Virus record (IMG/VR): IMGVR_UViG_3300005939_000029
Coordinates: 1 to 29,469 of that record
Length of the DNA: 29,469 nt
Reading direction: 5' to 3' (one strand)
DNA from: a virus
Part shown: piece after piece, positions 13,785 through 25,363 of the stretch
How the letters are laid out: every line of letters begins with the position of its first letter
Position numbering within the stretch: position 1 is the stretch's first letter
Position numbers and translations under genes: made by a program
Notes under the pieces: model-generated
What the model saw: the letters and a program-made list of their open reading frames with translations, nothing else
Told to the model about the DNA's origin: nothing
Database searches by the model: none

Positions 13785-14417
13785 TTATTCTAAGAACGAG
13801 AGGGCGTCCGAGGCTAACAGGCGGAGGTCGTCGTTCTGGATAGCGATAGAGGCGGGGCGTCCGTCCTCGACCTCGACCACTCCGGCGTCCCGGAGGTCGT
13901 GGACGTGGTTCTTTACCGTCCTCGTCGTCGTCTCCGTCCACTCCGAGAGGTGGGAGTAGGTCGTCGTCCCGTTCTGGACGAGACACGCTAAGATCCCGCG
14001 GCGGGTCGGTTCTCCGAGGGCTACCATACACTCCCGATACTCGTCCCGGTAACGACGACGGAGACGTTCGACGGAGACGACCGTCTCGACGGACCACTCC
14101 TCCCCGCATATCTGGACCTGTCCACGGAGGGGGCGGTCCTCCCCGTGGCTACCGTGAAAATTCGTTTCACGGTTCGAGTGTTCGGGTCCACACACAGCGT
14201 CCGCCTCTCCCGGGGGACGCTGAACGCGGTCTACTCCTCCCCCGTGGCTACCGTGAAAATTCGTTTCACGGTTCGAGTGTTCGGGTCCACACACAGCGTC
14301 CGCCTCTCCCGGGGGACGCTGAACGCGGTCTACTCCTCCCCCGCGGCTACCGTGAAAATCCGTTTCATCATAGCGTCCGGTTCTGTCGTCTAAGTGTTGG
14401 TGGCTTTCTGAACTCAC
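13785..14417 (-). CDS. ArsR/SmtB-type winged-HTH protein with an N-terminal 33-aa repeat (start uncertain: GTG 14417 or ATG 14027)
   Basis: C-terminal 'ALGEPTRRGILACL...TYSHLSEWTETTTRTVKNHVHDLRDAGVVEV' fits ArsR-type HTH. A GGAGG lies upstream of GTG 14417 and a promoter at 14461-14484. Confidence 0.7.
   Translation of the reverse strand: MSSESHQHLDDRTGRYDETDFHGSRGGGVDRVQRPPGEADAVCGPEHSNRETNFHGSHGGGVDRVQRPPGEADAVCGPEHSNRETNFHGSHGEDRPLRGQVQICGEEWSVETVVSVERLRRRYRDEYRECMVALGEPTRRGILACLVQNGTTTYSHLSEWTETTTRTVKNHVHDLRDAGVVEVEDGRPASIAIQNDDLRLLASDALSFLE
14141..14367. repeat. 99-bp tandem repeat, 2.3 copies, each carrying the palindrome CCGTGAAA-N5-TTTCACGG
   Basis: Palindrome cores start at 14152, 14251 and 14350 (exact period 99). 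Copies 1 and 2 are identical; copy 3 is partial with two substitutions. Confidence 0.95.
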
Positions 14418-14460: not shown

Positions 14461-14484
14461 TCTTAAAAAGTTACCGGAGGCTAC
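14461..14484 (-). promoter_or_regulatory. leftward viral promoter motif driving the wHTH ORF
   Basis: Minus strand reads GTAGCCTCCGGTAACTTTTTAAGA, just after the stop of 14491-14973. Confidence 0.65.
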
Positions 14485-14490
14485 GGCGTA

Positions 14491-14973
14491 TTAGCGAAAC
14501 AGGTCCCGCTTAGTCCACTCCGTAACGTCCCACTTTCGAACCGCGTCCTCCCGGGCTGGACATTTCTGTGTGTCCGTCCGGATCTCCCTCCCTGTGTCGT
14601 CGTCGTAGTGGGTCCAGTCATACTCCGCGGTAGTGTCCGCTGTGTATTGGTCCAGCGTGAACTCGTAGAGGGTCTTTGTGTCTCTCTCGTAGACGAGGAC
14701 GAGTTCCACCTCCTCGAATTGAAGGTTAGAGAGGACGGGGAGGCTAATCGGGTAGGAGTCGAATTTCCTAAACAGGTTCGCGTCCGTCGTCCGGGTCGTC
14801 CGGTAGCCCTTAATCTCCCGTTTCTCCTCGTCCCCGCGGTTATAGACCACTACGAGGTTCCCGATTTTGTGGTTCTTATACGGGTGAGGGACGGGACGCG
14901 CTTTCCGGATCTGTGGGGGCGCGTCGAACTCCGGTTCCTCCTGTGTGTCGGTAAAGTCGTCCAGCGTAGCCAT
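14491..14973 (-). CDS. hypothetical viral protein
   Basis: 160-aa acidic ORF with genome-typical codon usage and its own promoter motif at 15011-15033 (-). Confidence 0.7.
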   Translation of the reverse strand: MATLDDFTDTQEEPEFDAPPQIRKARPVPHPYKNHKIGNLVVVYNRGDEEKREIKGYRTTRTTDANLFRKFDSYPISLPVLSNLQFEEVELVLVYERDTKTLYEFTLDQYTADTTAEYDWTHYDDDTGREIRTDTQKCPAREDAVRKWDVTEWTKRDLFR

Positions 14974-15010
14974 TTTCTAATCTCCTCGTAGGGTCGTATC
15001 ACTCGTTCCA

Positions 15011-15060
15011 ACATAATGTTACCGGATGGCTAATACGCGTTTCGTCCGGTATCTTTAAAC
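15011..15060. promoter_or_regulatory. back-to-back divergent promoters
   Basis: Minus strand TTAGCCATCCGGTAACATTATG (15011-15033); plus strand TCGTCCGGTATCTTTAAAC (15042-15060), about 24 bp before ATG 15084. Confidence 0.6.
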
Positions 15061-15083
15061 CGTCCGTAGCCCTTATCTCCGGT

Positions 15084-15956
15084 ATGTCCACAGTCACGGA
15101 ACGGAGTAAGGACCCGGAGGCTATCGCCTCGGAGCTCGGACTCCCGGATCTCGTCGGACGAACAGCCCGCGTCTACCTCGACCGCCTCGAACAGGAGGAC
15201 TATCAGATCCCCGCGGACGCCCGGACCTACCCGGCTATCGTTTACTACGCGTCCCGGGACGAGGGCGAACCGTTCACCGCGGGAGAGGTAGCGGAACAGG
15301 CGGGCGTATCGGAAACCGCTGTTTCCCGGGAGTTCCGGCGTCTCGTAGACGCCCTCGGACACACCCCCGAACACGCGGATCCGGAGGCGTTCCTACAGCG
15401 GTTCGGGAACGAACTCTCCGCCTCGACGGAGACGGTGAACACAGCCCTCGACCTCTACCGGGAGGGCGCGGACACGGGGCTGTTCTCGAACCGGACGCCC
15501 GCGGTCGTCGCGTCCCTGTGTCTCTACGCGGCGTCCACCCTCACGGACGACGACCTCACACAGGCGGACTTTGAGGAGTTCGGCGTCTCGCGGACCTCTA
15601 TCCGGAAGGGCTACAAAACGGTTCTCTCCCTCCGCGGGGAGGAACAGTCCTCCGGTAAGATCTCCGAGGGCGACGCCGCGGACCGTCTCCGGGAGGCGGT
15701 CGAGGCTATCCACTCCGAACTCTCGTTCCCGGAGGTCGTTCTGGACGCCGCCCTCGAACGCGTCGAGGAGGTAGCCGGACAGGAGTGGGTCCGCGGTAAG
15801 TCCGCGGGTCCTATCGCCTCCGGGATCTACTGGATAGCCGCGGACGAGAACCGTATGGTCCTCTCACAGGGGGACGCCGCGGACGCCGCCCCCGGGAACG
15901 TCCACAAAGTCACGGTGAACCGTCGCGTCGCGGCTATCCGGGACCACGCCTCGTAA
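15084..15956 (+). CDS. tfb: TFB/TFIIB-like protein with three cyclin-fold repeats and no Zn ribbon
   Basis: 'IASELGLP...VYYASRDEGEPFTAGEVAEQAGVS', 'DPEAFLQRFGNEL...GLFSNRTPAVVASLCLYAAS...TQ' and 'IHSELSFP...GKSAGPIASGIYWIAA...VTVNRR' each match TFB core repeats. Confidence 0.85.
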   Translation: MSTVTERSKDPEAIASELGLPDLVGRTARVYLDRLEQEDYQIPADARTYPAIVYYASRDEGEPFTAGEVAEQAGVSETAVSREFRRLVDALGHTPEHADPEAFLQRFGNELSASTETVNTALDLYREGADTGLFSNRTPAVVASLCLYAASTLTDDDLTQADFEEFGVSRTSIRKGYKTVLSLRGEEQSSGKISEGDAADRLREAVEAIHSELSFPEVVLDAALERVEEVAGQEWVRGKSAGPIASGIYWIAADENRMVLSQGDAADAAPGNVHKVTVNRRVAAIRDHAS

Positions 15957-16243
15957 TGTCCGAGACTGTTCACGACCTCCGGGGACAGATCTCGCGGGCT
16001 GTGGGGATCTCCTCGTCGCCCTCCGGGGCGTTTCGTAAAGACGACCTGAACGTTATCCTCTCCACCCTCGGAGGAGACGCGCTGGACGCCGCGGAGGTCT
16101 ACGGGTGGGACGCCCCGCCTAAGTCGTGGTTCTACGAACAGGTAGCGGCGGAGGCGGGGTTCGACTACGACCCCGGAGAGGGAGATAACGCCCGCCCGTT
16201 CAATCGGGGCGAACTCCTCGACCTCCTCGACGCTGTTCAGTAG
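15956..16243 (+). CDS. hypothetical protein
   Basis: 95 aa, TAATG-coupled to the TFB-like gene. It has two related halves ('AFRKDDL..IL' and 'PFNRGEL.DLL'). Confidence 0.7.
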   Translation: MSETVHDLRGQISRAVGISSSPSGAFRKDDLNVILSTLGGDALDAAEVYGWDAPPKSWFYEQVAAEAGFDYDPGEGDNARPFNRGELLDLLDAVQ

Positions 16244-16260
16244 CCGCGAAACTTACGCTA

Positions 16261-16284
16261 TTAGTCTCCGGTAGCATTTTAAAG
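16261..16284 (+). promoter_or_regulatory. viral promoter motif
   Basis: TTAGTCTCCGGTAGCATTTTAAAG, 22 bp before ATG 16306. Confidence 0.6.
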
Positions 16285-16305
16285 ACCCACTCCGAACCGG
16301 AGGGT

Positions 16306-16809
16306 ATGGAGTGGAACCCCGGACCCAAATACCGGGCTTACCTGTCCGCTATTCAGGAGGTCCTACAGAACGGAGAGAAACGAACGGTGAGGGACGTTTA
16401 CTACGCGTTAGAGGCGCGTGGGTTCCCGGTCCGCGCCCGGTGGTATGAGTCCGAGGAGGAAATGGAGAACGACGGGGCGGGAACCCTGTCCAGTCTCGCG
16501 TTCGAGAGGTTAGCCGTGAACCCGGAGGACATAGCGGAGTTCGACCTCCCGGAGAACCCCACGCCCTCGTCCTCGGATAAGGACCGAAAGATCCGGGAGT
16601 CCTTTATGGAACACGTCTCCGGCGGTCGAGACGTGAACGTAGAACTAAACGCGCTGAAAGAGTTTCAGCGGGACTACTTAGAGGACCTGATAGAGGACGG
16701 GATCTCGAACCACGTAGACGAGGATCTGAAAGGGGAGGTAGCCCGTCGCGTCGAGGAGGCGAAACGGGACCTCTCCGAGGCGGTCCAGATAGACCGGGAC
16801 GCGCTGTAG
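16306..16809 (+). CDS. internally deleted Topo VI-A/Spo11-like (Toprim family) remnant
   Basis: N-terminal 'TVRDVYYALEARG' and C-terminal 'FERLAVNPEDIAEFDLPENP...SDKD...VELNAL' match the ends of such proteins, but no EK or DxDxxG core lies between them. Confidence 0.5.
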   Translation: MEWNPGPKYRAYLSAIQEVLQNGEKRTVRDVYYALEARGFPVRARWYESEEEMENDGAGTLSSLAFERLAVNPEDIAEFDLPENPTPSSSDKDRKIRESFMEHVSGGRDVNVELNALKEFQRDYLEDLIEDGISNHVDEDLKGEVARRVEEAKRDLSEAVQIDRDAL

Positions 16810-16819
16810 CCGGTTCCGG

Positions 16820-16841
16820 TTAGCGTCCAGTATCTTTTAGC
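16820..16841 (+). promoter_or_regulatory. viral promoter motif
   Basis: TTAGCGTCCAGTATCTTTTAGC, about 26 bp before ATG 16866. Confidence 0.55.
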
Positions 16842-16865
16842 CCCTCGTAGGGTAAGCCTACGAGT

Positions 16866-17165
16866 ATGAGTTCCGAGGAACCAATAGAACGCAAAGCGGA
16901 CCCGGAGGCGTCCCTCACGGAGGAGGACACGTCCGGGACCGGAGATCTCCTAACGAGTAGCCCGTCCCTCCCGACGTGGGGGACCGTCGCCCGCGTCTCC
17001 CTCGTCGTCCTCCTGTTCGGGGGACTCCTCTCGACCGTCGTAGGCGCGTCCCTGTGGACGCTGGACGCGTGGGGCGTGGAGGCTACTCTCGCGGTCGTAG
17101 GCGTGGGCGCGGTCGTCGTCGCGTTCGTTCTCGCACAGGTCTACGCCCGGAAAGGGTGGATCTGA
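16866..17165 (+). CDS. small membrane protein (2 TM)
   Basis: 99 aa with two hydrophobic stretches in the C-terminal half. Confidence 0.65.
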   Translation: MSSEEPIERKADPEASLTEEDTSGTGDLLTSSPSLPTWGTVARVSLVVLLFGGLLSTVVGASLWTLDAWGVEATLAVVGVGAVVVAFVLAQVYARKGWI

Positions 17166-17503
17166 TGGAACCCGGGACGGACGACCCGCGGGAGACGCTG
17201 GACGACCTCGTTCCGGAGGACGTTCTCTCTCACGTCGCGGGGGCGCTATCGGACTTTCCCTCCCTGTCTCTCCCCTACGAGGCGGTCGTCTACGAGGGCG
17301 GGGAGATAGACCGGGACGAACTCGGAAAGACGGTAGCCGCCCGGATTAAGTCCGAGAGTATCTACGGATCCGCCTACGTCGAGAGGGACGTAGAGGGCGA
17401 CGAGGACGACCCGGACAGTATCACTATCCGAGTTCTCGACCCGTCCGAGGTCGTCGTAGACGACGAGGGGAACGTTCAGGAGGTCGGTCGTGGGGAACAG
17501 TAA
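17165..17503 (+). CDS. hypothetical acidic protein (ATG 17165; the track extends it upstream to 16976)
   Basis: TGATG coupling to the previous stop; acidic composition begins at MEPGTDD. Confidence 0.65.
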   Translation: MEPGTDDPRETLDDLVPEDVLSHVAGALSDFPSLSLPYEAVVYEGGEIDRDELGKTVAARIKSESIYGSAYVERDVEGDEDDPDSITIRVLDPSEVVVDDEGNVQEVGRGEQ

Positions 17504-17900
17504 GGGCGACGCGGGCGAACGTGAACTCCGGGACATACTCCTCTCGGAGGCGTTCGCAGTTATCCGGGCGGCGGGATCCGGGTCCGCCCCGGGCGTCGAA
17601 CTCCCGGATCTCCACGTCGGGAACGGGGCGACGGAGTGGGCGATAGAGGCGAAACGACACAGCCCGGATAAGAACCGCTACCTCTCACCGGAGGAGGTCG
17701 AGGCGCTACTCTCCTACTCGACGTTCTTTCAGAACGCGAAACCGCGGGTAGCCGCCCGGTGGGACTACGACACTACGTGGTATCTCGCGGACCCGCGGGA
17801 TCTCCCGGAGACGCCCACGGGGAAACGGCGTCTCGACCCGGACGCCCGGGAGGAGGACCCGTGGACGACGCTGGACGACCTCCTCGAACGCGTCGCGTAG
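17490..17900 (+). CDS. hjc: archaeal Holliday junction resolvase (Hjc family)
   Basis: 'KGDAGERELRDIL...FAVIRAAGSGS...PDLHVGNG...AIEAK' is the Hjc signature. An AGGAGGT Shine-Dalgarno site precedes the GTG. Confidence 0.9.
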   Translation: MGNSKGDAGERELRDILLSEAFAVIRAAGSGSAPGVELPDLHVGNGATEWAIEAKRHSPDKNRYLSPEEVEALLSYSTFFQNAKPRVAARWDYDTTWYLADPRDLPETPTGKRRLDPDAREEDPWTTLDDLLERVA

Positions 17901-17936
17901 GATATACTTTTACTCGAACCGTTCGCGTGGTAGCGT

Positions 17937-18071
17937 ATGTCACGGACAGGCTACGGTCCGAGTGTCCAGCCCCCTCTCCGGAAACGACGCGACGGGTCCG
18001 AGGTCGTCGTAGAACTCCTCGACTACGAGGGCGGGTGGTATCCAGTAAAGCGGTTCGAGGAGTCGGACTAA
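17937..18071 (+). CDS. small hypothetical protein (44 aa, not in the ORF track)
   Basis: MSRTGYGPSVQPPLRKRRDGSEVVVELLDYEGGWYPVKRFEESD. A TATA-like TACTTTTA lies about 25 bp upstream and codon usage is genome-typical. Confidence 0.5.
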   Translation: MSRTGYGPSVQPPLRKRRDGSEVVVELLDYEGGWYPVKRFEESD

Positions 18072-18083
18072 CCCGCGCAACTC

Positions 18084-18100
18084 TCCCGGTATCTTTAAGA
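18084..18100 (+). promoter_or_regulatory. viral promoter motif
   Basis: CCCGGTATCTTTAAGA upstream of the operon that includes PCNA. Confidence 0.6.
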
Positions 18101-18184
18101 CCCTCCTATCCAAATGAATAGACGCCTTACCCGTAGCCCTCCCCGAACGTGCGACAGGCTACGAGTAACGGAGGATTACGCGCT

Positions 18185-19459
18185 ATGCCAAACGACGACG
18201 AAACAGAAACAGTCCGGAACGAGGAACGGGGCTGTGGCTTTCTCAAACACGGGAAAGCCTACGTCCGTTCCCCGCCCCGGTCCGCGGACGGGGTTCTCCC
18301 CTCGTTCGTGGAGTTCGACCCCGTGGTTCCCTACTTAGAGAGGTCTAAGTTCAGGGGCTACGAGTATTTCCCCGGAACGGAGTTCGAGTTATCCGTTACC
18401 GACTGGACGAACCTCCCGGAGGATAAAGAGACGTGGATCCGCCCACAGCCCGACGACGGGATAGACGAGGCGGCGTTTAACCCTATCAGCCCGGAGTTCG
18501 AGGACGGACCGGAGACGGAGTTCTCGACCGTTCCCCGTGGAGAGGTATGGAGACATATAGCCCGAACCGTCGGGTCCGCCTCTCCCTACGAACACGCGGG
18601 ACAGATCCCACAGTTTCAGTCCCGGGACCTGTTTATGTTCGTCGGAAAGTCCTACTACGAGACGCCGGAGGAGTTCATAGAGGAGGTCCACGAACAGGGA
18701 CTCTCTAAGGCTATCCCGGTGAGTGAATCACAGGAACCGCCCCGGATAGACCCCGGGAACACGCGTCTCTACCTCGTCCACCCGCGGGCGGTCTACTACG
18801 AGGAGACGGACACCTACAAGTCCGGGATAATCGGCTACGTCTACCTCCACAGAACGATTTACACGGAGGACGAGAAAGGGCGGTTCCCCGCGTGGGCGGA
18901 GAAACACGCCTCCGGTCGAGAGGATATGGACCTCGTTCGTATCGGGGACCAGATCTACGACGAAGGGACCCGGGCGACGACCATAAACGGAGTGTGTTCC
19001 GACGACGAGAGTCCCCGGAGTGAAACTGAAAGTGAACCCGTCTCCGTTCAGGCGTCCGATAAACCCGGGCGCGACGTGGAGGAGGTCCCGTCCGACGGAC
19101 TGGACGAGGACGCTATCCTCGACGGGCTGGACGAGGCGGAGGACGAGATCCGGGAGTTCGCGGAGGAGACGGAGAGGGTGGGCGAGTTCTACGTAGAGGT
19201 AAAGAACGACCTCTCCGAGTTCGGGATCTCCGGGTGGGACGAGTTCCGCGACGCGGTGGAGTTCGTGGACCTCCCGCCTGTCGAGGAGTTCCCGGACGAA
19301 CCTATGCGTCTACAGGCGGCGTCTACGGAACTCGAACTCCGCGACTCCGAGTATAACGACCTCCGCCGGAGGGCGTCGAGTAACGACCTGAACCCCGGAC
19401 GGAACCCGTCCGCGGACGACCTCGTTCGGGTTCTCCTGAAAGATATGGGGCTACTATGA
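18185..19459 (+). CDS. hypothetical viral protein (N-terminal ERGCG motif, acidic linker, small helical C-terminus)
   Basis: ATG 18185 has a GGAGG upstream (the track uses GTG 18149); 424 aa. Confidence 0.75.
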   Translation: MPNDDETETVRNEERGCGFLKHGKAYVRSPPRSADGVLPSFVEFDPVVPYLERSKFRGYEYFPGTEFELSVTDWTNLPEDKETWIRPQPDDGIDEAAFNPISPEFEDGPETEFSTVPRGEVWRHIARTVGSASPYEHAGQIPQFQSRDLFMFVGKSYYETPEEFIEEVHEQGLSKAIPVSESQEPPRIDPGNTRLYLVHPRAVYYEETDTYKSGIIGYVYLHRTIYTEDEKGRFPAWAEKHASGREDMDLVRIGDQIYDEGTRATTINGVCSDDESPRSETESEPVSVQASDKPGRDVEEVPSDGLDEDAILDGLDEAEDEIREFAEETERVGEFYVEVKNDLSEFGISGWDEFRDAVEFVDLPPVEEFPDEPMRLQAASTELELRDSEYNDLRRRASSNDLNPGRNPSADDLVRVLLKDMGLL

Positions 19460-19671
19460 GAGGGTGGGGGACGGTCCAGCGGGTCCTCCGCGAACTCTAC
19501 GACGAGGAGAACGGAGTCCCACGGGAGGAGATAGTTCGAGAGGCGGTCCGGGAGGGCGTCCCCCGCGACGACGCGGAGGACGCTGTGGACGAACTCAAAC
19601 GACGCGGTGAGATCTACAACTCGGACCCGAAAAACAACCTACTGAAACCGACACCTACGCGTAAACTATGA
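19456..19671 (+). CDS. stand-alone winged-helix protein resembling the archaeal MCM C-terminal domain
   Basis: 'LRELYDEENGVPREEIVREAVREGVPRDDAEDAVDELKRRGEIY' resembles 'GAP...V...A...G......IEKL...GE.Y'. ATGA overlaps at both ends. Confidence 0.55.
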   Translation: MRGWGTVQRVLRELYDEENGVPREEIVREAVREGVPRDDAEDAVDELKRRGEIYNSDPKNNLLKPTPTRKL

Positions 19672-20873
19672 GTCAGACACAGAAAGCGAAAGCGGACGAG
19701 GCGGAACAGGCGGACGAACAGAACGAGGCGGCTATCCACGTCGAGACGGGCGGAGATCTGTGGAGGTCTACGACGGACCTCCTCTCCGTCCTCGTAGACG
19801 AGTGTAAGGTCCGGTTCGACGCGGACGACGACGAGGACCCGGAGGTTCACGTCCGGGCTGTGAACCCCGCGAACGTGGGTATGGTCGAGGTCCGGATCCC
19901 GGCGGACGCGTTCGACGCCTACGAGGTCGAGGAGGCTACCGTCCTCGGACTCCCGCTGGACGAACTCACGACCATTACGGACTACGCCCGAAAAGGCGGG
20001 AACGGGGATAACCCGGGAGATCCCGTGATAGTCGAACAGGTCGGGAAACGGATCTACGTCCGCGTGGAACCGGAGGATAAGTGGAACCGGACGGGTTCCT
20101 TTTTCGAGATAGACCCGGACTCTATCCGACAGGAACCGGATATACCGGACCTCGACCGCCCGTGGAGGGGCGACGTGGAACCGTCGAACCTCCGCGACGC
20201 GCTGGACGGGATTAAGTCCCGGTTCGACTATGCCGCCCTCTCCGCGACGCCGGGGACTGTCGGAGACGGATCCCTCGGAAACAGGGAGGCGGCGTATTTC
20301 TCCGTCTACGCGGCGGAGACGAACGCCGCCCGGGAGATCCGCAAAGAGGACGAGTTTAGGTCCGACGAAAAACTCCTCCACGCCTCCCCGGGCGCGGACC
20401 CGGTTACGTCCGTGTTCAGTCTCGACCACCTCCGGGATATGCTACAGGGAGTCGTAAAGGCGGGGTTCGGGCGGGCGACGCTGGACCTCGGACAGGAGTT
20501 CCCGGTTACTATCTCGTTCTCCGGGAGTCGGTTCGGGATCTCCGGACAGTATATGTTAGCCCCTCGTATTAAGTCCGGAGAGTACGAGGACTCTACAGCG
20601 GACCTCTCGCGGACGTGGGGCGATAGGTTCGACGGGACGGACGAGGACACGGAGAACGACGCGGACGACGAGGAGGACGCTGTGGGCGACGAGACGGACG
20701 CCTCTACGGACGAGGACGAGGCGGAGGTCCCGGACTGTTCCGCCGGGGGCTGTGAGAACGACGCCTCCGAGGACGCGCTGGACGACGGCTACCCGCTGTG
20801 TGAGGACCACGACACTACGGACGCCCGCGAACTCTACGACTCCCGCGACGCGGACGAGGAGGAGGAGAACTAA
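19668..20873 (+). CDS. pcn: DNA sliding clamp PCNA with acidic C-terminal extension and Cys3His motif
   Basis: 'LVDECKV', 'AVNPANVGMV', 'IDPDSIRQEPDIPDLD', 'FSLDHLRDM', 'LGQEFPV' and 'YMLAPRI' are haloarchaeal PCNA hallmarks. Confidence 0.95.
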   Translation: MSQTQKAKADEAEQADEQNEAAIHVETGGDLWRSTTDLLSVLVDECKVRFDADDDEDPEVHVRAVNPANVGMVEVRIPADAFDAYEVEEATVLGLPLDELTTITDYARKGGNGDNPGDPVIVEQVGKRIYVRVEPEDKWNRTGSFFEIDPDSIRQEPDIPDLDRPWRGDVEPSNLRDALDGIKSRFDYAALSATPGTVGDGSLGNREAAYFSVYAAETNAAREIRKEDEFRSDEKLLHASPGADPVTSVFSLDHLRDMLQGVVKAGFGRATLDLGQEFPVTISFSGSRFGISGQYMLAPRIKSGEYEDSTADLSRTWGDRFDGTDEDTENDADDEEDAVGDETDASTDEDEAEVPDCSAGGCENDASEDALDDGYPLCEDHDTTDARELYDSRDADEEEEN

Positions 20874-21310
20874 TGGACGCAGACACGGCTAAACGGTTCA
20901 CCTCTCGCCTGAAACAACTCGACCTTTCCGAGGAGGCGGAGTCCGAGGTCTACGACCTCGTTCGAGATCTCCGACGAACGGCGAAACCGTCCGCCCTAAT
21001 CGGCGTCTCGACGGAGGAGGGCGGTATGGGAGGGAACGCCCGTATCACTCTCGGAGAGGATCCCACGGAGATCTCCGTCCCGGTCCCGGACGAACTCCGG
21101 AACTCCGACGACGACAAAGACTACGAGGCTATGTCCCTCTACCTGTCCCTGAACCGCGTCGAGGAGGGCGACGGGGCGGGACGCTGGACCGCGGTGGACA
21201 CGGTGAAAGACCCCGACTCCCGGGCGGAGTCGCCTAAGAAACTCGTCCTCGAACAGAACACGGAGACGGGGGAGTATCGCTACCGGAACCTCCCGGAGGT
21301 CGAGAAATGA
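20873..21310 (+). CDS. hypothetical protein
   Basis: 145-aa acidic ORF, TAATG-coupled to PCNA. Confidence 0.7.
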   Translation: MDADTAKRFTSRLKQLDLSEEAESEVYDLVRDLRRTAKPSALIGVSTEEGGMGGNARITLGEDPTEISVPVPDELRNSDDDKDYEAMSLYLSLNRVEEGDGAGRWTAVDTVKDPDSRAESPKKLVLEQNTETGEYRYRNLPEVEK

Positions 21311-21552
21311 GTTCCGAGAGTCGAACCTCCCCGTCCTCTATCCGTCGAGAGGCGGAGAAAGACGACGTAGTGGAGGCTATCCGGACCTCGGAGTTCTCGG
21401 ACGCCGGGAGTCGTGAGGTAGCCCGTCGTCTCGACCTGTCCCACGGACGCGTTCGGAAACTCGTTCAGGACCTCCGGGAGGAGGGACGGATCCGCGTTAC
21501 CCGGACGGTCGGACCCGCGAAACTCTACCGCGTCGCGGAGGAGGAGGTCTAA
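21307..21552 (+). CDS. winged-HTH DNA-binding protein
   Basis: 'SREVARRLDLSHGRVRKLVQDLREEGRIRVTRTVGPAKLY'. Confidence 0.75.
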   Translation: MSSESRTSPSSIRREAEKDDVVEAIRTSEFSDAGSREVARRLDLSHGRVRKLVQDLREEGRIRVTRTVGPAKLYRVAEEEV

Positions 21553-21644
21553 TGGAGGACCACGAACCCGGGGCGGGCTACGTTCTCGGAGTCGCGGTCT
21601 ACGCGCTGATAGCGGTAGCCCACGCCTACGAACAGTCCAACTAA
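21552..21644 (+). CDS. 30-aa hydrophobic peptide (not in the ORF track)
   Basis: MEDHEPGAGYVLGVAVYALIAVAHAYEQSN; TAATG coupling with GGAGG upstream. Confidence 0.5.
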   Translation: MEDHEPGAGYVLGVAVYALIAVAHAYEQSN

Positions 21645-21650
21645 CGCGGA

Positions 21651-21673
21651 GTAGTCTCCGGTAACTTTTTAAC
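21651..21673 (+). promoter_or_regulatory. viral promoter motif
   Basis: GTAGTCTCCGGTAACTTTTTAAC, about 29 bp before ATG 21702. Confidence 0.7.
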
Positions 21674-21701
21674 GGTCCTCTCCGTCGGGTAGTGTGTCGC
21701 T

Positions 21702-22511
21702 ATGACAGACACGGACGAACTCGGAGACTTTGAGGACTACGGGGACGCCCCCGACTCCTCGACGGACTCCGGAAACGACGGAGTGGAACAGGACGCGGAG
21801 GACCGCGGGCGGGAGATCTACGACGAAATGGTAGAACAGATCCCCGTAGACGAACTCGGAGACACGGATCCGGCGGAGGTAGCGAACGCCGCGGCTAAGA
21901 TCCTCGAACTCGAACGCGGCGGTCCGGAACAGAACCCGGTCGGGATAGATCCCCGCGTGGGCGAAAAGGACGTAGCCTACGACCGGGCGAAACCCGGGGC
22001 GAAACTCTACGTCGTCCAGATCCTCGCGGAGACGGTCGAGGACTACTACGAGGAGTTCCCGGACGCCCCCGAGCTGGACGAGTATGCCGGGAACGTCGTC
22101 TCCGGTTTCGACCCGGAGGGCGCTGTGTTCGCCTGTGTCTACCTGAAAGACTCCCTCACGTCCGTAGACACGAACCTCACCGCCTACCCTATGCCGGAGT
22201 CGCGTCTCACGCGCTACCCGACGGAACAGGCGTCTATGGTCGGGTCGTCCAGCGTGGAGTTCGAGAGGACGCGTCTCCCCGGTGAGACTCACCGCCTCGA
22301 CGCGGCGGAACCCGCGGAGATCCCCGACGACGCGGAACGCGACGAGGACGGAGAGGCGGTCCTCCCCGACGACGCCGGGAGTAGCCCGGGCGCGGGGGAA
22401 ATGGACCTCTCGACCGCCCTCTCTTGTATCGCTACCCACGGACATACCGAACGGGCGGAGGAGATCCGAGAGGTCGAGGGGCTGGACTCCGAGGAGGTCT
22501 ACGGACTATGA
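21702..22511 (+). CDS. hypothetical acidic protein
   Basis: 269 aa with its own promoter and genome-typical codon usage. Confidence 0.75.
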   Translation: MTDTDELGDFEDYGDAPDSSTDSGNDGVEQDAEDRGREIYDEMVEQIPVDELGDTDPAEVANAAAKILELERGGPEQNPVGIDPRVGEKDVAYDRAKPGAKLYVVQILAETVEDYYEEFPDAPELDEYAGNVVSGFDPEGAVFACVYLKDSLTSVDTNLTAYPMPESRLTRYPTEQASMVGSSSVEFERTRLPGETHRLDAAEPAEIPDDAERDEDGEAVLPDDAGSSPGAGEMDLSTALSCIATHGHTERAEEIREVEGLDSEEVYGL

Positions 22512-22696
22512 ACGACCTCGAACGCCTGTCCGTGGACGACCTCACGGAGGACGAGATAGAGGCGGTTCTGAACACGCGGGGCTTTCGGAAAATGTTAGCC
22601 TATCAGCGTCTCGCGGAGGGTATTCAGGTTCTCGCGGACGAGGACTTAGAGGATCTATACGTCGAGGAGGACGAGACGGGGGGCGCTAATGCCTAA
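22508..22696 (+). CDS. hypothetical protein (62 aa; ATG 22508)
   Basis: ATGA overlap with the previous stop; acidic MNDLERLSVDD... Confidence 0.6.
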   Translation: MNDLERLSVDDLTEDEIEAVLNTRGFRKMLAYQRLAEGIQVLADEDLEDLYVEEDETGGANA

Positions 22697-22865
22697 CTGT
22701 GAGGAGTGTGGGTCCCGGATCTCTCCCGACGGAGAACACTTCACCCACTACGAACCCACGAACCAACACTCCGCGACGGTCCACCCGCTATGTAGCCCGG
22801 GCTGTATGCGGGACTACCTCGACGGACTGGACGACGAGACGGACGAGGAGGAGGAGGACGCGTGA
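22689..22865 (+). CDS. small Zn-finger protein (CxxC...CxxxC, TRASH/MYM-like; 58 aa, not in the ORF track)
   Basis: MPNCEECGSRIS...HPLCSPGCMRDYLDG...; fills the gap and overlaps both neighbours. Confidence 0.65.
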   Translation: MPNCEECGSRISPDGEHFTHYEPTNQHSATVHPLCSPGCMRDYLDGLDDETDEEEEDA

Positions 22866-23644
22866 ACGGGGGAGTTATCGGCGTCCCCGTGGACACGGCT
22901 ACCCACGTCGAGATAGAGGGCGTCGAGGACTGGACCGGATCCTCTCACGGGGAACACGGGACGGAACTCGACGCCGCCCTCTCCGTGAAAGAGGTCCGGA
23001 CCCTCTCCGGAGACACGGACTACTACGTGGGAGAGGCGTTCAAACAGCGGGAGGAGGAGGTCGAGGACTACTACGAGGAGGACGGAACTATCCGGAACCG
23101 GACGACCTACCGGGCGGTTACGGACTACTCGGAGTTTATCGTAGTCCCCGGATCCGACTCTCACCGCGGCTACGTCCTCGTCTCCTCGTCCAGCGGGGAG
23201 TTCGTGTTCTCCCTCGTCGGGCGACAGAATAACGTAACTATGGACCGGGCGACTCTCCGCCTCGGAGACTGGATAGAGGCGCGGGAGGACGAGTTCGACG
23301 CGACGACCGGGGGCGGTTCGACCGGATCCCCGGACGCCTCGAAACTCACCGCGTGGGGGAACGACGTTCTGGACGACCCGGACGTAGGGAAACTCCTCTC
23401 CGGGGCTGTTCGGTCGAACGTCCTCAATCAGGTAGCGGGGCGCTACGTATGGGACGGGATCCCCCTCTACCTCACGTTAGCAAAGTCGGGCTACGCGGAG
23501 GTATGGAACCCGTCGGATATGGACACCTCGGAGTTCTTAGGGTGGATCTCCGCGGAGGTCGTTCCCGTCGCGGACGCCCCGACGGAGGACGAGGAGACGG
23601 AACAGGACACTCTCGGAGACGAGGGCGCGGAGGGGTCCGCGTGA
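22862..23644 (+). CDS. hypothetical protein
   Basis: 260-aa acidic ORF; GTG start in a GTGA overlap. Confidence 0.75.
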   Translation: MNGGVIGVPVDTATHVEIEGVEDWTGSSHGEHGTELDAALSVKEVRTLSGDTDYYVGEAFKQREEEVEDYYEEDGTIRNRTTYRAVTDYSEFIVVPGSDSHRGYVLVSSSSGEFVFSLVGRQNNVTMDRATLRLGDWIEAREDEFDATTGGGSTGSPDASKLTAWGNDVLDDPDVGKLLSGAVRSNVLNQVAGRYVWDGIPLYLTLAKSGYAEVWNPSDMDTSEFLGWISAEVVPVADAPTEDEETEQDTLGDEGAEGSA

Positions 23645-23976
23645 GGGAGAAAGTCGAGGTCCACGTTACGACCTCCGCGGAGTTAGAGGGGGACCTCCGG
23701 GATCTCCTCCTACAGATCCTCGTAGAGGACGGAGTGGATCCCGTCTCCGAACTCGCGGCCCGGGCGGACGTGGAACTCTCCGAGGCGTCTATGGAACCCG
23801 GGGAGATCTACGCGACTCTCGCGGTCCTCCCGGAGGACATAGAGGACGTGGAGGGCGTCGAGGAGTTCGTAGTCGAGGACGAGGACGACAGTCTCGAACG
23901 GAAAGCGGCTAAGACCTCGGACCTGTCCGTGGACGACTCCGTGGACGACTCCGAGGACGACGACTCCGACGACTGA
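23641..23976 (+). CDS. very acidic hypothetical protein (GTG 23641)
   Basis: GTGA overlap; the coding signature begins at VREKVEV. Confidence 0.65.
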   Translation: MREKVEVHVTTSAELEGDLRDLLLQILVEDGVDPVSELAARADVELSEASMEPGEIYATLAVLPEDIEDVEGVEEFVVEDEDDSLERKAAKTSDLSVDDSVDDSEDDDSDD

Positions 23977-24030
23977 AACCCCGGCTATTCCTTTCGGGCT
24001 GTTCTACGTTAGTGCCCCGGTATCTTTATA
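23977..24030 (+). repeat. intergenic terminator/promoter cassette, copy 1
   Basis: AAACCCCGGCTATTCCTTTCG...GTTAG..CCGGTATCTTTAT, similar to 25308-25363. Confidence 0.65.
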
Positions 24031-24054
24031 TGCCCCGGAGTGTTAGAGGTAGGT

Positions 24055-24780
24055 ATGGGACGACAGACCCGCGGACTCACGAACGACGAAACGCGACTCC
24101 TCAAACAGAACGACGACGCCGCCCGCCAGCTGGACGCCTCCGACGTGGAGGAGGGCGACGTTCTCGAACTCACGTTCTGGGACGGGCGTCGCGCCCGCTA
24201 CGAGGTCGAGGGGGAGTGGACGGACGAGGACACCCTCACGTTCGAGGACTACGACGACCCCGCGAACGAGGCGGAGGGTAAGTTCCCCGGACTGAAAGCG
24301 TCGAGAGTGTGGACCGTGGACTCCGGACTCTACTCCGAGATCCCCCGCTACCGGGCTACCCTCGTTCTGGACGCGGACTCCGCGACGGGCGCGTTAGTGG
24401 ATAATTGGAAAGACGACGAGGACGCGGGCTACGTCGTCCACTCCCTCCGAAAGGCGGAGGTCGTGGGCATCGAGGAACGGTGGACCGTCGAGGGCGATAT
24501 GTCCAGCCCGACCGCCCGACACGTCGCCCGGGTCGTCCGAGAGGCGATAGAGGAGGATCCCCTCGTCGGGACGACCGCGGCGGAGTCGTGGACTCTCAAA
24601 GACGAGGACCACAGCGGGACGGGCGTTCTCGGTAACGACCTCGGACCCGTCGTTTCCGTCGCGGAGGCGCTGGACCTCCACGTTCGGGAGGCGTTCGAGG
24701 AGTATCTATTCGAGAACCTGAACGAGGGCGTGAGTTTCGAGTGTGAACGAAACGGCGTATGGTCGTTCTACCGTAACTGA
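24055..24780 (+). CDS. hypothetical protein (ATG 24055)
   Basis: ATG lies 25 bp after the TATA-like box; acidic, 241 aa. Confidence 0.7.
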   Translation: MGRQTRGLTNDETRLLKQNDDAARQLDASDVEEGDVLELTFWDGRRARYEVEGEWTDEDTLTFEDYDDPANEAEGKFPGLKASRVWTVDSGLYSEIPRYRATLVLDADSATGALVDNWKDDEDAGYVVHSLRKAEVVGIEERWTVEGDMSSPTARHVARVVREAIEEDPLVGTTAAESWTLKDEDHSGTGVLGNDLGPVVSVAEALDLHVREAFEEYLFENLNEGVSFECERNGVWSFYRN

Positions 24781-24867
24781 ACGCGCCCTCTACCCGCCCG
24801 TAACCTCGTCGCGGACGGTCCGCGGCGGGGCGGGACGAGTAGGAGGATCCCGACCAAACACCCGACT

Positions 24868-25047
24868 ATGACACAGGCTACGACACAGATCCGCGAACTC
24901 GGACCCGACGACCGCGTTCGAGTTACGCTGGACGACGGAACGGAACTCCGCTGTATGGCACAGAACGAACGGAACGCGAACTACCACGGGGACCGGCGGA
25001 AATGCGGGACCTGTCTCCGGATCCTCGAAACACGGAGGGCGGACTAA
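24868..25047 (+). CDS. small hypothetical protein (59 aa, not in the ORF track)
   Basis: MTQATTQIRELGPDDRVRVTLDDGTELRC...CGTC...; AGGAGG upstream and TAATG coupling downstream. Confidence 0.5.
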   Translation: MTQATTQIRELGPDDRVRVTLDDGTELRCMAQNERNANYHGDRRKCGTCLRILETRRAD

Positions 25048-25307
25048 TGGGAGGGAACTACCCGCCCGGGACCTCCGCGGGAGATCCTAACGCCCCGTGG
25101 AACGCCCCGGATCCGCCGGAGTGTCCCGCCTGTGGGAACCTGATAGCGGAGGTCGAGGACCACGCGGACGACTGTGAGGAGTCCGAGCTCGACGCTGTAG
25201 ATCTCGCGGAGGCGGAACAGGAACCCTCCCGGACGTGGGACGACGTGAAAGAGGACCCGACTCCCTCCGAGGCGGAACGCTACGGACTGGACCGCCCGGA
25301 CGAGTAG
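25047..25307 (+). CDS. small CPxCG-motif protein
   Basis: 'MGGNYPPG...DPNAPWN...ECPACG'; ATG 25047 preceded by GGAGG. Confidence 0.65.
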   Translation: MGGNYPPGTSAGDPNAPWNAPDPPECPACGNLIAEVEDHADDCEESELDAVDLAEAEQEPSRTWDDVKEDPTPSEAERYGLDRPDE

Positions 25308-25363
25308 AAAACCCCGGCTATTCTTTCGAGACTATCCTCCGTTAGCCTCCGGTAACTTTATTA
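25308..25363 (+). repeat. intergenic terminator/promoter cassette, copy 2
   Basis: AAAACCCCGGCTATTCTTTCG...GTTAGCCTCCGGTAACTTTATTAT. Confidence 0.65.

What the first reader, a model, noticed from the sequence alone, without database searches (positions are those of the whole stretch)
15084..15956. Virus-encoded TFB with three cyclin repeats and no Zn ribbon/B-reader
Cellular TFB/TFIIB has an N-terminal Zn ribbon that recruits RNA polymerase and exactly two cyclin repeats. This 290-aa protein starts directly at repeat 1 and has a third repeat (about 15680-15950). The BRE-reading helix (host-type VTEVTIRNRY) is altered to VSRTSIRKGY in repeat 2 and appears as VHKVTVNRRV in repeat 3. It is the first gene of the rightward early region. 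It could be a dominant-negative TBP/promoter sequesterer that shuts off host transcription, or a specificity factor that reads an extended viral BRE through the extra HTH. I do not know of a described three-repeat TFB, but cannot search.
Basis: partly seen in the sequence, partly recalled or inferred. Interest (0 to 1): 0.85.

Follow-up and report, generated by a model that had tools for sequence, protein, structure and literature searches.

The report
Ribbon-less three-repeat viral TFB
An uncultured tailed virus of salt-loving archaea encodes a copy of the host transcription start factor TFB that keeps the promoter/TBP-binding core, has a third copy of the DNA-reading repeat and lacks the part that recruits RNA polymerase, so it most likely occupies promoters rather than fires them; its function has not been tested.

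Summary
ORF 15084-15956 (290 aa) has three TFIIB-type cyclin repeats and no Zn ribbon, B-reader or B-linker. There is no coding room for them upstream, and no TFB ribbon anywhere in the window. Repeats 1-2 model as a canonical TFB core (1ais_B, Z 19.3). Repeat 3 folded alone is a TFIIB cyclin fold (TM 0.80-0.88) and resembles the BRE-reading second repeat of cellular TFBs.

The protein belongs to a conserved family (25 clusters, 47-99% identity, all about 290-320 aa). It sits at a fixed position in related haloarchaeal tailed-virus contigs. The architecture is rare in cells: 1 of 401 sampled haloarchaeal genomes, and none of 76 plasmid TFB hits. Distant three-repeat branches do occur on islands and plasmid-like contigs.

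These viruses also share a private promoter element, CCGGTAWC, at the BRE position next to the TATA box. It differs from the haloarchaeal CGAAA consensus.

The favoured mechanism is a TBP/promoter-docking competitor of host TFB that cannot recruit RNA polymerase, with repeat 3 adding DNA contacts. A positive specificity-factor role is not excluded.

Canonical viral TFBs are published, but I found no description of a three-repeat ribbon-less form. This scan has flagged the same kind of protein before on other DNA. Verdict: new variant of a known kind.

The parts
15084..15956 (+). Gene for the 290-aa ribbon-less, three-repeat TFB-like protein (P0001)
   Evidence: ORF; Pfam, NCBIfam and PHROG hits; 25 full-length homologues.
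15114..15359 (+). Repeat 1 (aa 11-92). It is of the TFB cyclin-repeat-1 type and contains the invariant R58, which aligns with human TFIIB R169.
   Evidence: Five helices in the AF2 model. The R1 HMM scores 24 bits on canonical repeat 1 against 17 on repeat 2. Alignment to TFIIB.
15381..15638 (+). Repeat 2 (aa 100-185). It is of the TFB cyclin-repeat-2 type, with HTH GVSRTSIRKGY. R174 and Y177 align with TFIIB R286 and Y289; T171 replaces V283.
   Evidence: (42 against 14.5 bits).
15639..15674 (+). Linker of about 12 residues between repeats 2 and 3, poorly conserved and modelled with low confidence
   Evidence: pLDDT block of 69; mean pairwise identity 0.26.
15675..15947 (+). Repeat 3 (aa 198-288). 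An extra TFIIB cyclin fold of the repeat-2 (BRE-reading) type, with invariant GKS, YW and HKVTVNRR.
15040..15059 (+). The gene's own promoter: a degenerate class-1 element TTTCGTCCGGTATC abutting TATA box TTTAAA, 25 nt before the ATG (leaderless-type spacing)
15013..15032 (-). Back-to-back class-1-like element (CCGGTAAC + ATTAT) facing the leftward gene 14491-14973
14463..14483 (-). Class-1 promoter (TAGCCTCCGGTAAC + TTTTTAA) of the leftward wHTH regulator gene 13785-14417
16262..16283 (+). Class-1 promoter before gene 16306
16821..16840 (+). Class-1 promoter variant (CCAGTATC) before gene 16866
18080..18099 (+). Class-1 promoter before gene 18149
21652..21672 (+). Class-1 promoter before gene 21702
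   Evidence: (I2).
24011..24031 (+). Class-1 promoter about 25-30 nt before an ATG near 24056-24058 (frame not checked against the listed ORF 24040-24780)
25343..25363 (+). Class-1 promoter before gene 25403
15956..16243 (+). 95-aa ORF overlapping the stop of the TFB-like gene (ATGA). It is co-conserved directly downstream in relatives and is a possible partner; it has no family match.

Best explanation
The gene encodes a virus-adapted derivative of the TFB core. Repeats 1 and 2 keep the geometry and key residues of the TBP- and BRE-binding B-core. A flexibly tethered third repeat of the BRE-reading type adds a further helix-turn-helix.

The Zn ribbon, B-reader and B-linker are absent. The protein can therefore dock on TBP-TATA complexes but cannot bring in or position RNA polymerase by the canonical route. 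It would act as a promoter-occupying competitor of host TFB.

The likeliest targets are the virus group's own CCGGTAWC-TATA promoters. These include its own promoter, that of the divergent wHTH regulator and those of the replication-module genes. Repeat 2 would read the BRE-position core and repeat 3 the conserved upstream extension (TAGYCTC). The outcome would be autoregulation or temporal shut-down of that gene class, while tail-module promoters with a host-like BRE stay open.

Shown here: the architecture, the fold, the conservation, the absence of the ribbon, and the private promoter element. Inferred: TBP binding, DNA binding, the choice of target and the repressive outcome.
For: Architecture: three PF00382 repeats, no ribbon, reader or linker, and no room upstream.

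Fold: the whole-protein model has pLDDT 91. Residues 6-186 superpose on P. woesei TFBc from the TBP-DNA complex at Z 19.3 and rmsd 3.0 A over 181 aa. Foldseek gives rmsd 2.2-2.4 A and TMt 0.78. So repeats 1-2 are predicted in the TBP-bound core geometry.

Residues: R58 is invariant across all 18 sequences of the broad three-repeat alignment. It aligns with human TFIIB R169 in 'YIACRQEGVPRT', a TBP-stirrup contact by my recollection of Tansey and Herr 1997. R174 is nearly invariant and aligns with TFIIB R286; Y177 is invariant and aligns with Y289.

Repeat 3: it is a TFIIB cyclin fold of the repeat-2 type (26.7 against 16.2 bits). Its HTH segment is net positive in a protein of net charge -22.

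Published roles: the ribbon is essential for RNAP recruitment, while the B-core binds TBP and the BRE (PMC6212726).

Promoter element: CCGGTAWCNTTTW with up to 1 mismatch occurs 10 times against 0.4 expected, with 0 of 100 shuffles reaching 10. Nine of the 10 lie in the right orientation about 20-60 nt before a start codon. It differs from the haloarchaeal BRE CGAAA (PMC4983044). It is at chance level in five haloarchaeal genomes. The same core recurs in four other virus contigs carrying the gene.

The gene's own promoter carries the element, so host factors must be able to fire class-1 promoters before the protein exists.
Against: No binding or transcription data exist. The relative position of repeat 3 is uncertain (pTM 0.69, linker pLDDT 69).

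The base-reading V283 position is Thr in repeat 2. The recognition helices could serve another purpose.

The private element could instead be read by the adjacent wHTH regulator or by a host TFB paralogue.

Simple co-variation between helix and motif was not demonstrable. P0015 shares the window's repeat-2 helix, but its contig shows CCGATAC and CCGTTATC variants.

Only about 28% of the virus genome is in hand, so a trans-acting ribbon protein cannot be excluded.

A repressor of the virus's own replication genes as the first rightward gene is not an obvious design.
Confidence: 0.45

Rival explanations
1. Positive promoter-specificity factor, acting like a sigma factor. The protein replaces host TFB on the private CCGGTAWC-TATA promoters and still supports initiation. 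RNA polymerase would be recruited non-canonically, through repeat 3, through the co-conserved 95-aa downstream protein, or through a ribbon protein encoded in the unseen 72% of the genome.
For: The private BRE-position element travels with the gene across contigs at 48-100% identity. It is not a generic host motif. The repeat-2 and repeat-3 recognition helices are nearly invariant in the close family. The gene heads the rightward module. A canonical viral TFB in HRTV-DL1 is proposed to recruit host RNAP (PMC10544981; architecture verified). A translationally coupled 95-aa ORF is co-conserved.
Against: No ribbon, reader or linker is in the protein or the window. The related 38-kb virus has only a sub-threshold generic ribbon at the C-terminus of a replication-module protein. 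The ribbon is described as essential for recruitment (PMC6212726). The gene's own promoter is class-1, so host factors already use these promoters.
Confidence: 0.25
2. Host shut-off decoy. The protein titrates host TBP or occupies host promoters genome-wide as a dominant-negative TFB, freeing resources for the virus.
For: The TBP-contact Arg and the core geometry are retained. Recruitment domains are missing. Repeat 3's helix (VTV.RR) is closer to the canonical BRE-reading helix than repeat 2's is.
Against: The virus has no RNA polymerase gene in the window and depends on host TBP, TFB and RNAP, so global titration would also hit viral genes. The repeat-2 helix departs from the canonical sequence at several positions, and those changes are fixed in the family. 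That pattern suggests retargeting rather than mimicry of host specificity.
Confidence: 0.15
3. TBP-independent DNA-binding regulator or replication-origin factor. The three cyclin-fold HTHs would be used as an ordinary multi-HTH DNA binder, as with the TFIIB-like domains of Orc6, at the head of the replication module.
For: Many weak generic HTH hits overlap the repeats. Human Orc6 appears among the fold matches at Z 10.1 and 8.7. The gene neighbours Hjc and PCNA-like replication genes.
Against: The repeat-1/repeat-2 pair keeps the specific TFB core packing and the TBP-contact Arg across the whole superfamily. Orc6-type matches are far weaker than TFB matches. No repeated origin-like array was seen next to the gene apart from promoters.
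Confidence: 0.1

Closest known systems
Archaeal TFB / eukaryotic TFIIB core domain (P. woesei TFBc in 1AIS/1D3U; human TFIIBc in 1VOL/1C9B)
   Same: Repeats 1-2 share sequence family PF00382, the five-helix cyclin folds and the inter-repeat packing (Z 19.3; rmsd 2.2-3.0 A). The Arg matching TFIIB R169 and the Arg and Tyr of the BRE-reading helix are conserved.
   Different: There is no Zn ribbon, B-reader or B-linker. An additional third cyclin repeat follows a flexible linker. The repeat-2 recognition helix is altered at four positions (E to R, V to T, N to K, R to G). About 25% identity.
Published virus-encoded TFB homologues: HRTV-DL1 ORF43 (PMC10544981), Italian rudiviruses MRV1/ARV3/SSRV1 (10.1101/2020.01.16.907410), and Asgard viruses WyrdV1 and JinchiV1 (10.1101/2021.07.29.453957; PMC13700489)
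   Same: These are TFB homologues carried by archaeal viruses that rely on host RNA polymerase. Their function is untested (PMC9501531).
   Different: HRTV-DL1 ORF43 is canonical, with a PF08271 ribbon and two repeats in 310 aa. It shares only a one-repeat tblastn match with a distant family member (P0035); P0001 itself has no match in that collection. None of these papers describes a ribbon-less or three-repeat form.
Distant ribbon-less three-repeat proteins of the haloarchaeal mobilome (P0178 = Haloarcula sp. CBA1115 SG26_01580 and P0183, paired with an HNH_2 gene; P0036 on contig AOIU01000020)
   Same: Same architecture (three repeats, no ribbon, 287-300 aa) and the invariant R58 equivalent. 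They align over the full length at 24-31% identity.
   Different: They are chromosomal or island-borne rather than in a tailed-virus early module. The repeat-3 recognition helices differ. They have other fixed partners, either an HNH_2 nuclease gene or a second TFB-like paralogue.
Sulfolobus TFB3 (from my own knowledge, not tested here)
   Same: A naturally truncated TFB paralogue that modulates initiation rather than acting as the general factor.
   Different: It is the opposite truncation. TFB3 keeps the ribbon and reader and lacks the cyclin core, and it activates in trans. The present protein keeps only core-type repeats.

Membership tests
Archaeal TFB / TFIIB general initiation factor | N-terminal TFIIB-type Zn ribbon (PF08271) that recruits RNA polymerase | tested here: not met
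   There is no PF08271 hit in the protein or anywhere in the window at E <= 1. The protein has a single Cys (C146, inside repeat 2) and no CxxC motif. Only 10 residues precede repeat 1.
Archaeal TFB / TFIIB general initiation factor | B-reader and B-linker between the ribbon and the core | tested here: not met
   The NCBIfam PRK00423 alignment starts at model position 132 of 312. The open frame has only 38 codons upstream, and a divergent gene lies 110 nt away.
Archaeal TFB / TFIIB general initiation factor | B-core of two cyclin repeats in the canonical packing | tested here: met
   PF00382 matches at 20.4 and 36.7 bits. 1ais_B gives Z 19.3 and rmsd 3.0 A over 181 aa. 1d3u_B gives TMt 0.78. 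This rests on a predicted model with pLDDT 91.
Archaeal TFB / TFIIB general initiation factor | Binding to TBP and to the BRE upstream of the TATA box | not testable with these tools
   The only evidence is indirect. The R58 equivalent of TFIIB R169 is invariant and the R174 equivalent of R286 is nearly invariant. The V283 position is Thr.
TFIIB-type cyclin repeat (PF00382), applied to the third segment | Sequence match to the repeat profile and a five-helix cyclin fold ending in an HTH | tested here: met
   PF00382 scores 21.5 bits at E 4.9e-6 within the genome search, below the 23.6-bit whole-protein cut-off when taken alone. The repeat-3 profile hits 1d3u_B at E 4.6e-18. hhalign of repeat 1 against repeat 3 gives 95.6% probability. 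The domain model has pLDDT 95, and its top hits are TFIIB/TFB repeats at TM 0.80-0.88 and rmsd 1.2-1.9 A.
Published viral TFB homologues (vTFB) | Virus-encoded homologue of TFB | tested here: met
   The window is an IMG/VR virus record with tail tube, tail and Hjc genes. Synteny is conserved in other virus contigs.
Published viral TFB homologues (vTFB) | Canonical full-length architecture (ribbon plus two repeats), as verified for HRTV-DL1 ORF43 | tested here: not met
   HRTV-DL1 ORF43 has PF08271 (29.8 bits) and two PF00382 stretches. The present protein has no ribbon and three repeats.

The most novel reading that the evidence does not exclude
The three-repeat ribbon-less TFB is a true alternative initiation factor. 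It reads a private, extended BRE (TAGYCTCCGGTAWC) with two tandem BRE-reading repeats. It recruits host RNA polymerase by a ribbon-independent route, through repeat 3 or the coupled 95-aa protein. This would give an archaeal virus a sigma-factor-like switch of promoter specificity.
Probability: 0.2. Interest if true: 0.85.

Novelty: new variant of a known kind. Interest (0 to 1): 0.6.

Why it matters
How archaeal viruses time their gene expression and take over a eukaryote-like transcription machinery is largely unknown, and the few published viral TFBs are canonical and untested.

A conserved natural TFB that has lost the polymerase-recruiting module and gained a second BRE-reading repeat offers a concrete, testable case. 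It sits in viruses whose regulatory and replication genes all carry a private BRE-position element. It could show either promoter occlusion at the TBP/TFB step or ribbon-independent recruitment.

Either result would bear on the minimal requirements for TFB/TFIIB function. It would also give a tool for promoter-specific control in haloarchaeal genetics.

Tried and rejected
Split TFB. I looked for a TFB zinc ribbon encoded separately. There is none in the window. The related 38-kb virus has only a sub-threshold hit (26.5 bits against a 29-bit cut-off) at the C-terminus of a 326-aa post-Hjc protein. That model also 'rings' in bacterial control genomes, and the window's counterpart has no CxxC...CxxC motif. 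Not supported, but not excluded, because about 72% of the genome is missing.

Pseudogene or truncated remnant. Rejected: 25 clusters keep the same length and start, and repeat 3 carries many invariant residues.

Generic host promoter motif. Rejected for five haloarchaeal genomes: 4 exact hits in 22.6 Mb against 2 for the reversed control. The true host is unknown.

Common cellular architecture. Rejected: 1 of 401 genomes and 0 of 76 plasmid hits. Caveat: only 6-12 candidates per genome were scored.

Close relatives in cultured viruses. There is none in the phage collection by DNA or tblastn. The pattern scan of species genomes found none, and the second attempt failed for lack of a conserved block.

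Defence-system models (PADLOC). Nothing for the protein or for its cellular cousin, and only weak HNH hits for the cousin's partner.

A solved structure with three TFB-type repeats. None was found. Rows spanning all three repeats (Rb, p107, Brf2) have rmsd 13-16 A.

Helix-motif co-variation across five contigs. Too few promoters, and the pattern was inconsistent.

ESM Atlas. It gave only generic TFIIB clusters with scores below 0.9.

The contigs of several distant members were too short to give context.

Full report
THE GENE AND ITS CONTEXT

The window is an IMG/VR virus record that CheckV puts at about 28% complete. Its left half encodes a tail module on the + strand: a Phage_tube_2 tail tube at 1900-2919, tape-measure-like and baseplate-like proteins, and a DUF2341 protein. 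Two leftward genes follow. One is a wHTH regulator at 13785-14417, and the other, at 14491-14973, matches a PHROG family of unknown function. A long rightward block then begins with the gene in question and continues through Hjc (17490-17900), a weak PCNA-like protein and others.

ORF 15084-15956 is the first start-to-stop reading in its frame. Its stop-to-stop frame extends only 38 codons upstream. The divergent gene starts 110 nt away.

CHECKING THE OBSERVATION

Pfam's TFIIB repeat model matches three separate stretches, at aa 12-89, 96-180 and 205-282. NCBI's TFB model aligns aa 12-180 to model positions 132-302 of 312, so the protein begins at the first cyclin repeat. No TFB zinc-ribbon match exists in the protein or anywhere in the window. 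The protein has a single Cys, inside repeat 2, and no CxxC motif.

The AlphaFold2 model built on 22 family members has mean pLDDT 91. It shows three five-helix bundles joined by short linkers, and the second linker has low confidence.

Residues 6-186 superpose on the P. woesei TFB core taken from its TBP-DNA complex. VIA-align gives Z 19.3 and rmsd 3.0 A over 181 residues. Foldseek gives rmsd 2.2-2.4 A and TMt 0.78.

I folded repeat 3 alone from an 8-sequence alignment built from DNA references. The model has pLDDT 95 and pTM 0.88. Its best PDB matches are all TFIIB, TFB or Brf cyclin repeats at TM 0.80-0.88 and rmsd 1.2-1.9 A.

By sequence, the repeat-3 profile finds the P. woesei TFB core at E 4.6e-18. 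It matches the second, BRE-reading repeat best, at 40 against 27 bits. Against 22 canonical TFBs, repeat 1 behaves as cyclin repeat 1, and both repeat 2 and repeat 3 behave as cyclin repeat 2. Within the protein, repeat 3 is homologous to repeat 1 at 95.6% hhalign probability and to repeat 2 at 76.6%.

The architecture is therefore CLR1-CLR2-CLR2'.

THE FAMILY

Twenty-five clusters at 90% identity, spanning 47-99% identity to the query, all cover the full length and measure 289-321 aa. Invariant residues are densest in repeat 3, including GKS, W250 and HKVT..RR.

The gene occupies the same place in every contig with context. The order is tail module, two leftward genes, this gene, an overlapping ORF of about 95 aa, and then Hjc a few genes on.

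An exhaustive HMMER search of 1.8 billion representatives found 17 clusters at 50% identity that align across all three repeats. Some are as low as 24-38% identical.

Some of these distant branches are cellular. One 287-aa branch (P0038, P0178, P0183) is chromosomal in haloarchaea and is always followed by an HNH_2 gene. P0036 sits on an island-like contig two genes from a second ribbon-less TFB-like gene.

The architecture is nevertheless rare in cells. Among 401 sampled haloarchaeal species genomes, only the one I started from has a three-repeat match. This held both with the full-length profile and with the repeat-3 profile (122 bits, against 62 or less for ordinary TFB repeats). Each genome carries many canonical TFBs, about 18 in G001.

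Seventy-six haloarchaeal plasmids have TFB hits that cover only repeats 1-2. No cultured virus in the phage collection has a detectable relative.

Complete two-repeat 'core-only' TFBs of 179-202 aa also exist in metagenomes. Loss of the ribbon is therefore a wider phenomenon, and the third repeat is the rarer feature.

FUNCTIONAL RESIDUES

Aligned to human TFIIB, the family's 'YvaaRdegepvT' segment matches 'YIACRQEGVPRT'. The Arg in that segment, R58, is invariant in all 18 sequences of the broad three-repeat alignment. It corresponds to TFIIB R169, which I recall as the partner of TBP E284 in the altered-specificity pair of Tansey and Herr (1997). That point comes from my own knowledge and was not tested here.

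In repeat 2, 'GvsrTsiRkgY' aligns with 'GVADVTIRQSY'. The Arg and Tyr are kept (R174 nearly invariant, Y177 invariant), but the base-reading Val is Thr.

In the close family, the repeat-2 and repeat-3 helices are almost invariant. In distant branches, repeat 2 reverts to the canonical V-T-I/V-R-N-x-Y pattern, while the repeat-3 helix differs from branch to branch.

This pattern fits a conserved TBP/BRE-docking unit in repeats 1-2 plus a branch-specific extra reader in repeat 3. The HTH segments of repeats 2 and 3 are net positive in a protein of net charge -22.

PROMOTERS

The gene's upstream region has TTTAAA 25 nt before the ATG, with TTTCGTCCGGTATC immediately upstream of it.

The same arrangement, TAG[CT][CG]TCCGGTA[AT]C abutting a TATA box 22-45 nt before a start codon, recurs widely. 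It precedes genes 16306, 16866, 18149, 21702, an ATG near 24056-24058, 25403 and 2989. It also precedes both leftward genes.

The core CCGGTAWCNTTTW, with up to one mismatch, occurs 10 times against 0.4 expected, and none of 100 shuffles reached 10.

It sits where the BRE lies, but it differs from the haloarchaeal consensus CGAAA (PMC4983044). In five haloarchaeal genomes it occurs at chance level.

Tail-module promoters instead read GTAG(G/C)GAAC plus TATA, which is closer to the host consensus.

Related contigs that carry the gene, at 48-59% protein identity, show the same BRE-position core with small variants such as CCGATAAC, CCGGTATC and CGGTAGC. I found it independently before seeing that note.

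MECHANISM

Published work states that the B-core binds TBP and the BRE and that the Zn ribbon is essential for recruiting RNA polymerase (PMC6212726). A protein that keeps a canonical core and lacks everything N-terminal to it should form TBP-DNA complexes that cannot proceed.

I therefore favour a promoter-occupying competitor of host TFB (confidence 0.45). Its own promoter is of the private class, so host factors must be able to fire that class before the protein exists. The simplest circuit is then negative feedback, or an early-to-late switch, acting on class-1 promoters. Repeat 3 would supply added affinity or specificity on the upstream half of the element.

The main rival is a positive specificity factor that recruits polymerase some other way (0.25). 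The private element and the canonical viral TFB of HRTV-DL1 make this attractive. I verified that the HRTV-DL1 protein has a ribbon and two repeats, and its authors found it in virions and proposed that it recruits RNAP (PMC10544981). However, I found no ribbon here.

A global host shut-off decoy (0.15) and a TBP-independent DNA binder or origin factor (0.1) are less well supported.

COMPARISON WITH WHAT IS KNOWN, AND NOVELTY

Virus-encoded TFB homologues are published for Italian rudiviruses, for Asgard viruses and for HRTV-DL1, and none has an experimentally established function. I found no paper, solved structure or catalogued viral model describing a TFB-like protein with three cyclin repeats and no ribbon. 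An unnamed 298-aa BFVD entry, H9YPD1, may be one.

It should not be filed as a general initiation factor. It is a new variant built from TFB parts.

This scan has flagged the same kind of protein on other DNA before (e1-371896, e1-3432236, e1-3260963, e1-3426551, e1-5803957). Those notes agree with my reading but are not independent evidence.

Noticed in passing
L013:232-2384, L014:10001-12153, L015:10001-12150: A distant 287-aa branch of ribbon-less three-repeat TFB-like proteins is chromosomal in haloarchaea. In all three loci it is followed, with overlapping stop and start codons, by an HNH_2 (PF13391) protein of about 429 aa. The loci lie in islands carrying PLDc_2/DrmC-like, DUF499 and HicA genes. 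This may be an undescribed two-gene module; it is absent from PADLOC.
   Followed up: partly
window 1900, 9035, 12621 upstream regions versus 14463-25363: There are two promoter classes. The regulatory and replication half uses TAGYCTCCGGTAWC plus TATA. Tail-module genes use cgTAG(G/C)GAAC plus TATA, which is closer to the haloarchaeal CGAAA BRE. Both classes share a 'cgTAG', at different distances from the TATA box.
   Followed up: partly
window 15956-16243: A 95-aa acidic ORF overlaps the stop of the TFB-like gene (ATGA). It is conserved directly downstream in L004, L007/L009, L033 and L034. It has no Pfam or PHROG match and may be a partner protein.
   Followed up: no
proteins P0033, P0037, P0040, P0041, P0044, P0059 (alignment A2, C-terminal columns): A subgroup of three-repeat proteins (331-354 aa) carries a conserved C-terminal tail, 'YN.LK.LA....DVG.TPE...LI..L'. 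It resembles a HeH, SAP or Rho_N-type DNA-binding motif.
   Followed up: no
L031:8001-8903 and L031:9928-10806: Two ribbon-less TFIIB-like genes (300 and 292 aa) lie two genes apart on a 40-kb contig of hypothetical genes in a sequenced haloarchaeon (AOIU01000020). A MazE/PIN pair and AAA genes are nearby, which suggests a plasmid or island.
   Followed up: partly
proteins P0042, P0052, P0064, P0070, P0072, P0080: Complete two-repeat 'core-only' TFB proteins (179-202 aa, Met start, canonical VT(I/V)R recognition helices) occur in metagenomes. The ESM Atlas lists clusters of about 190 aa with 79-82 members in Thermoproteota and Nitrososphaerota.
   Followed up: partly
window 14141-14338: A perfect 99-bp tandem duplication lies inside the wHTH regulator gene 13785-14417 (repeat finder family D9).
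   Followed up: no
L004:13120-14100 and L033:6132-7535 versus window 18149-19459: In relatives, the large protein after Hjc ends in a CxxC...CxxC zinc ribbon, with a sub-threshold PF08271 hit of 26.5 bits in L004. The window's 436-aa counterpart has no such motif.
   Followed up: partly
window 16306-16809: A 167-aa protein matches a PHROG 'DNA topoisomerase' family (E 1.4e-21) only over the C-terminal part of the profile. It also has a weak TP6A_N hit at its N-terminus, so it looks like a shortened Topo VI-A/Spo11-like protein.
   Followed up: no
BFVD entry H9YPD1: An unnamed 298-aa viral protein aligns to the model's TFB core at 26% identity and rmsd 2.3 A. Its length suggests it may be another three-repeat form in a deposited virus.
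   Followed up: no
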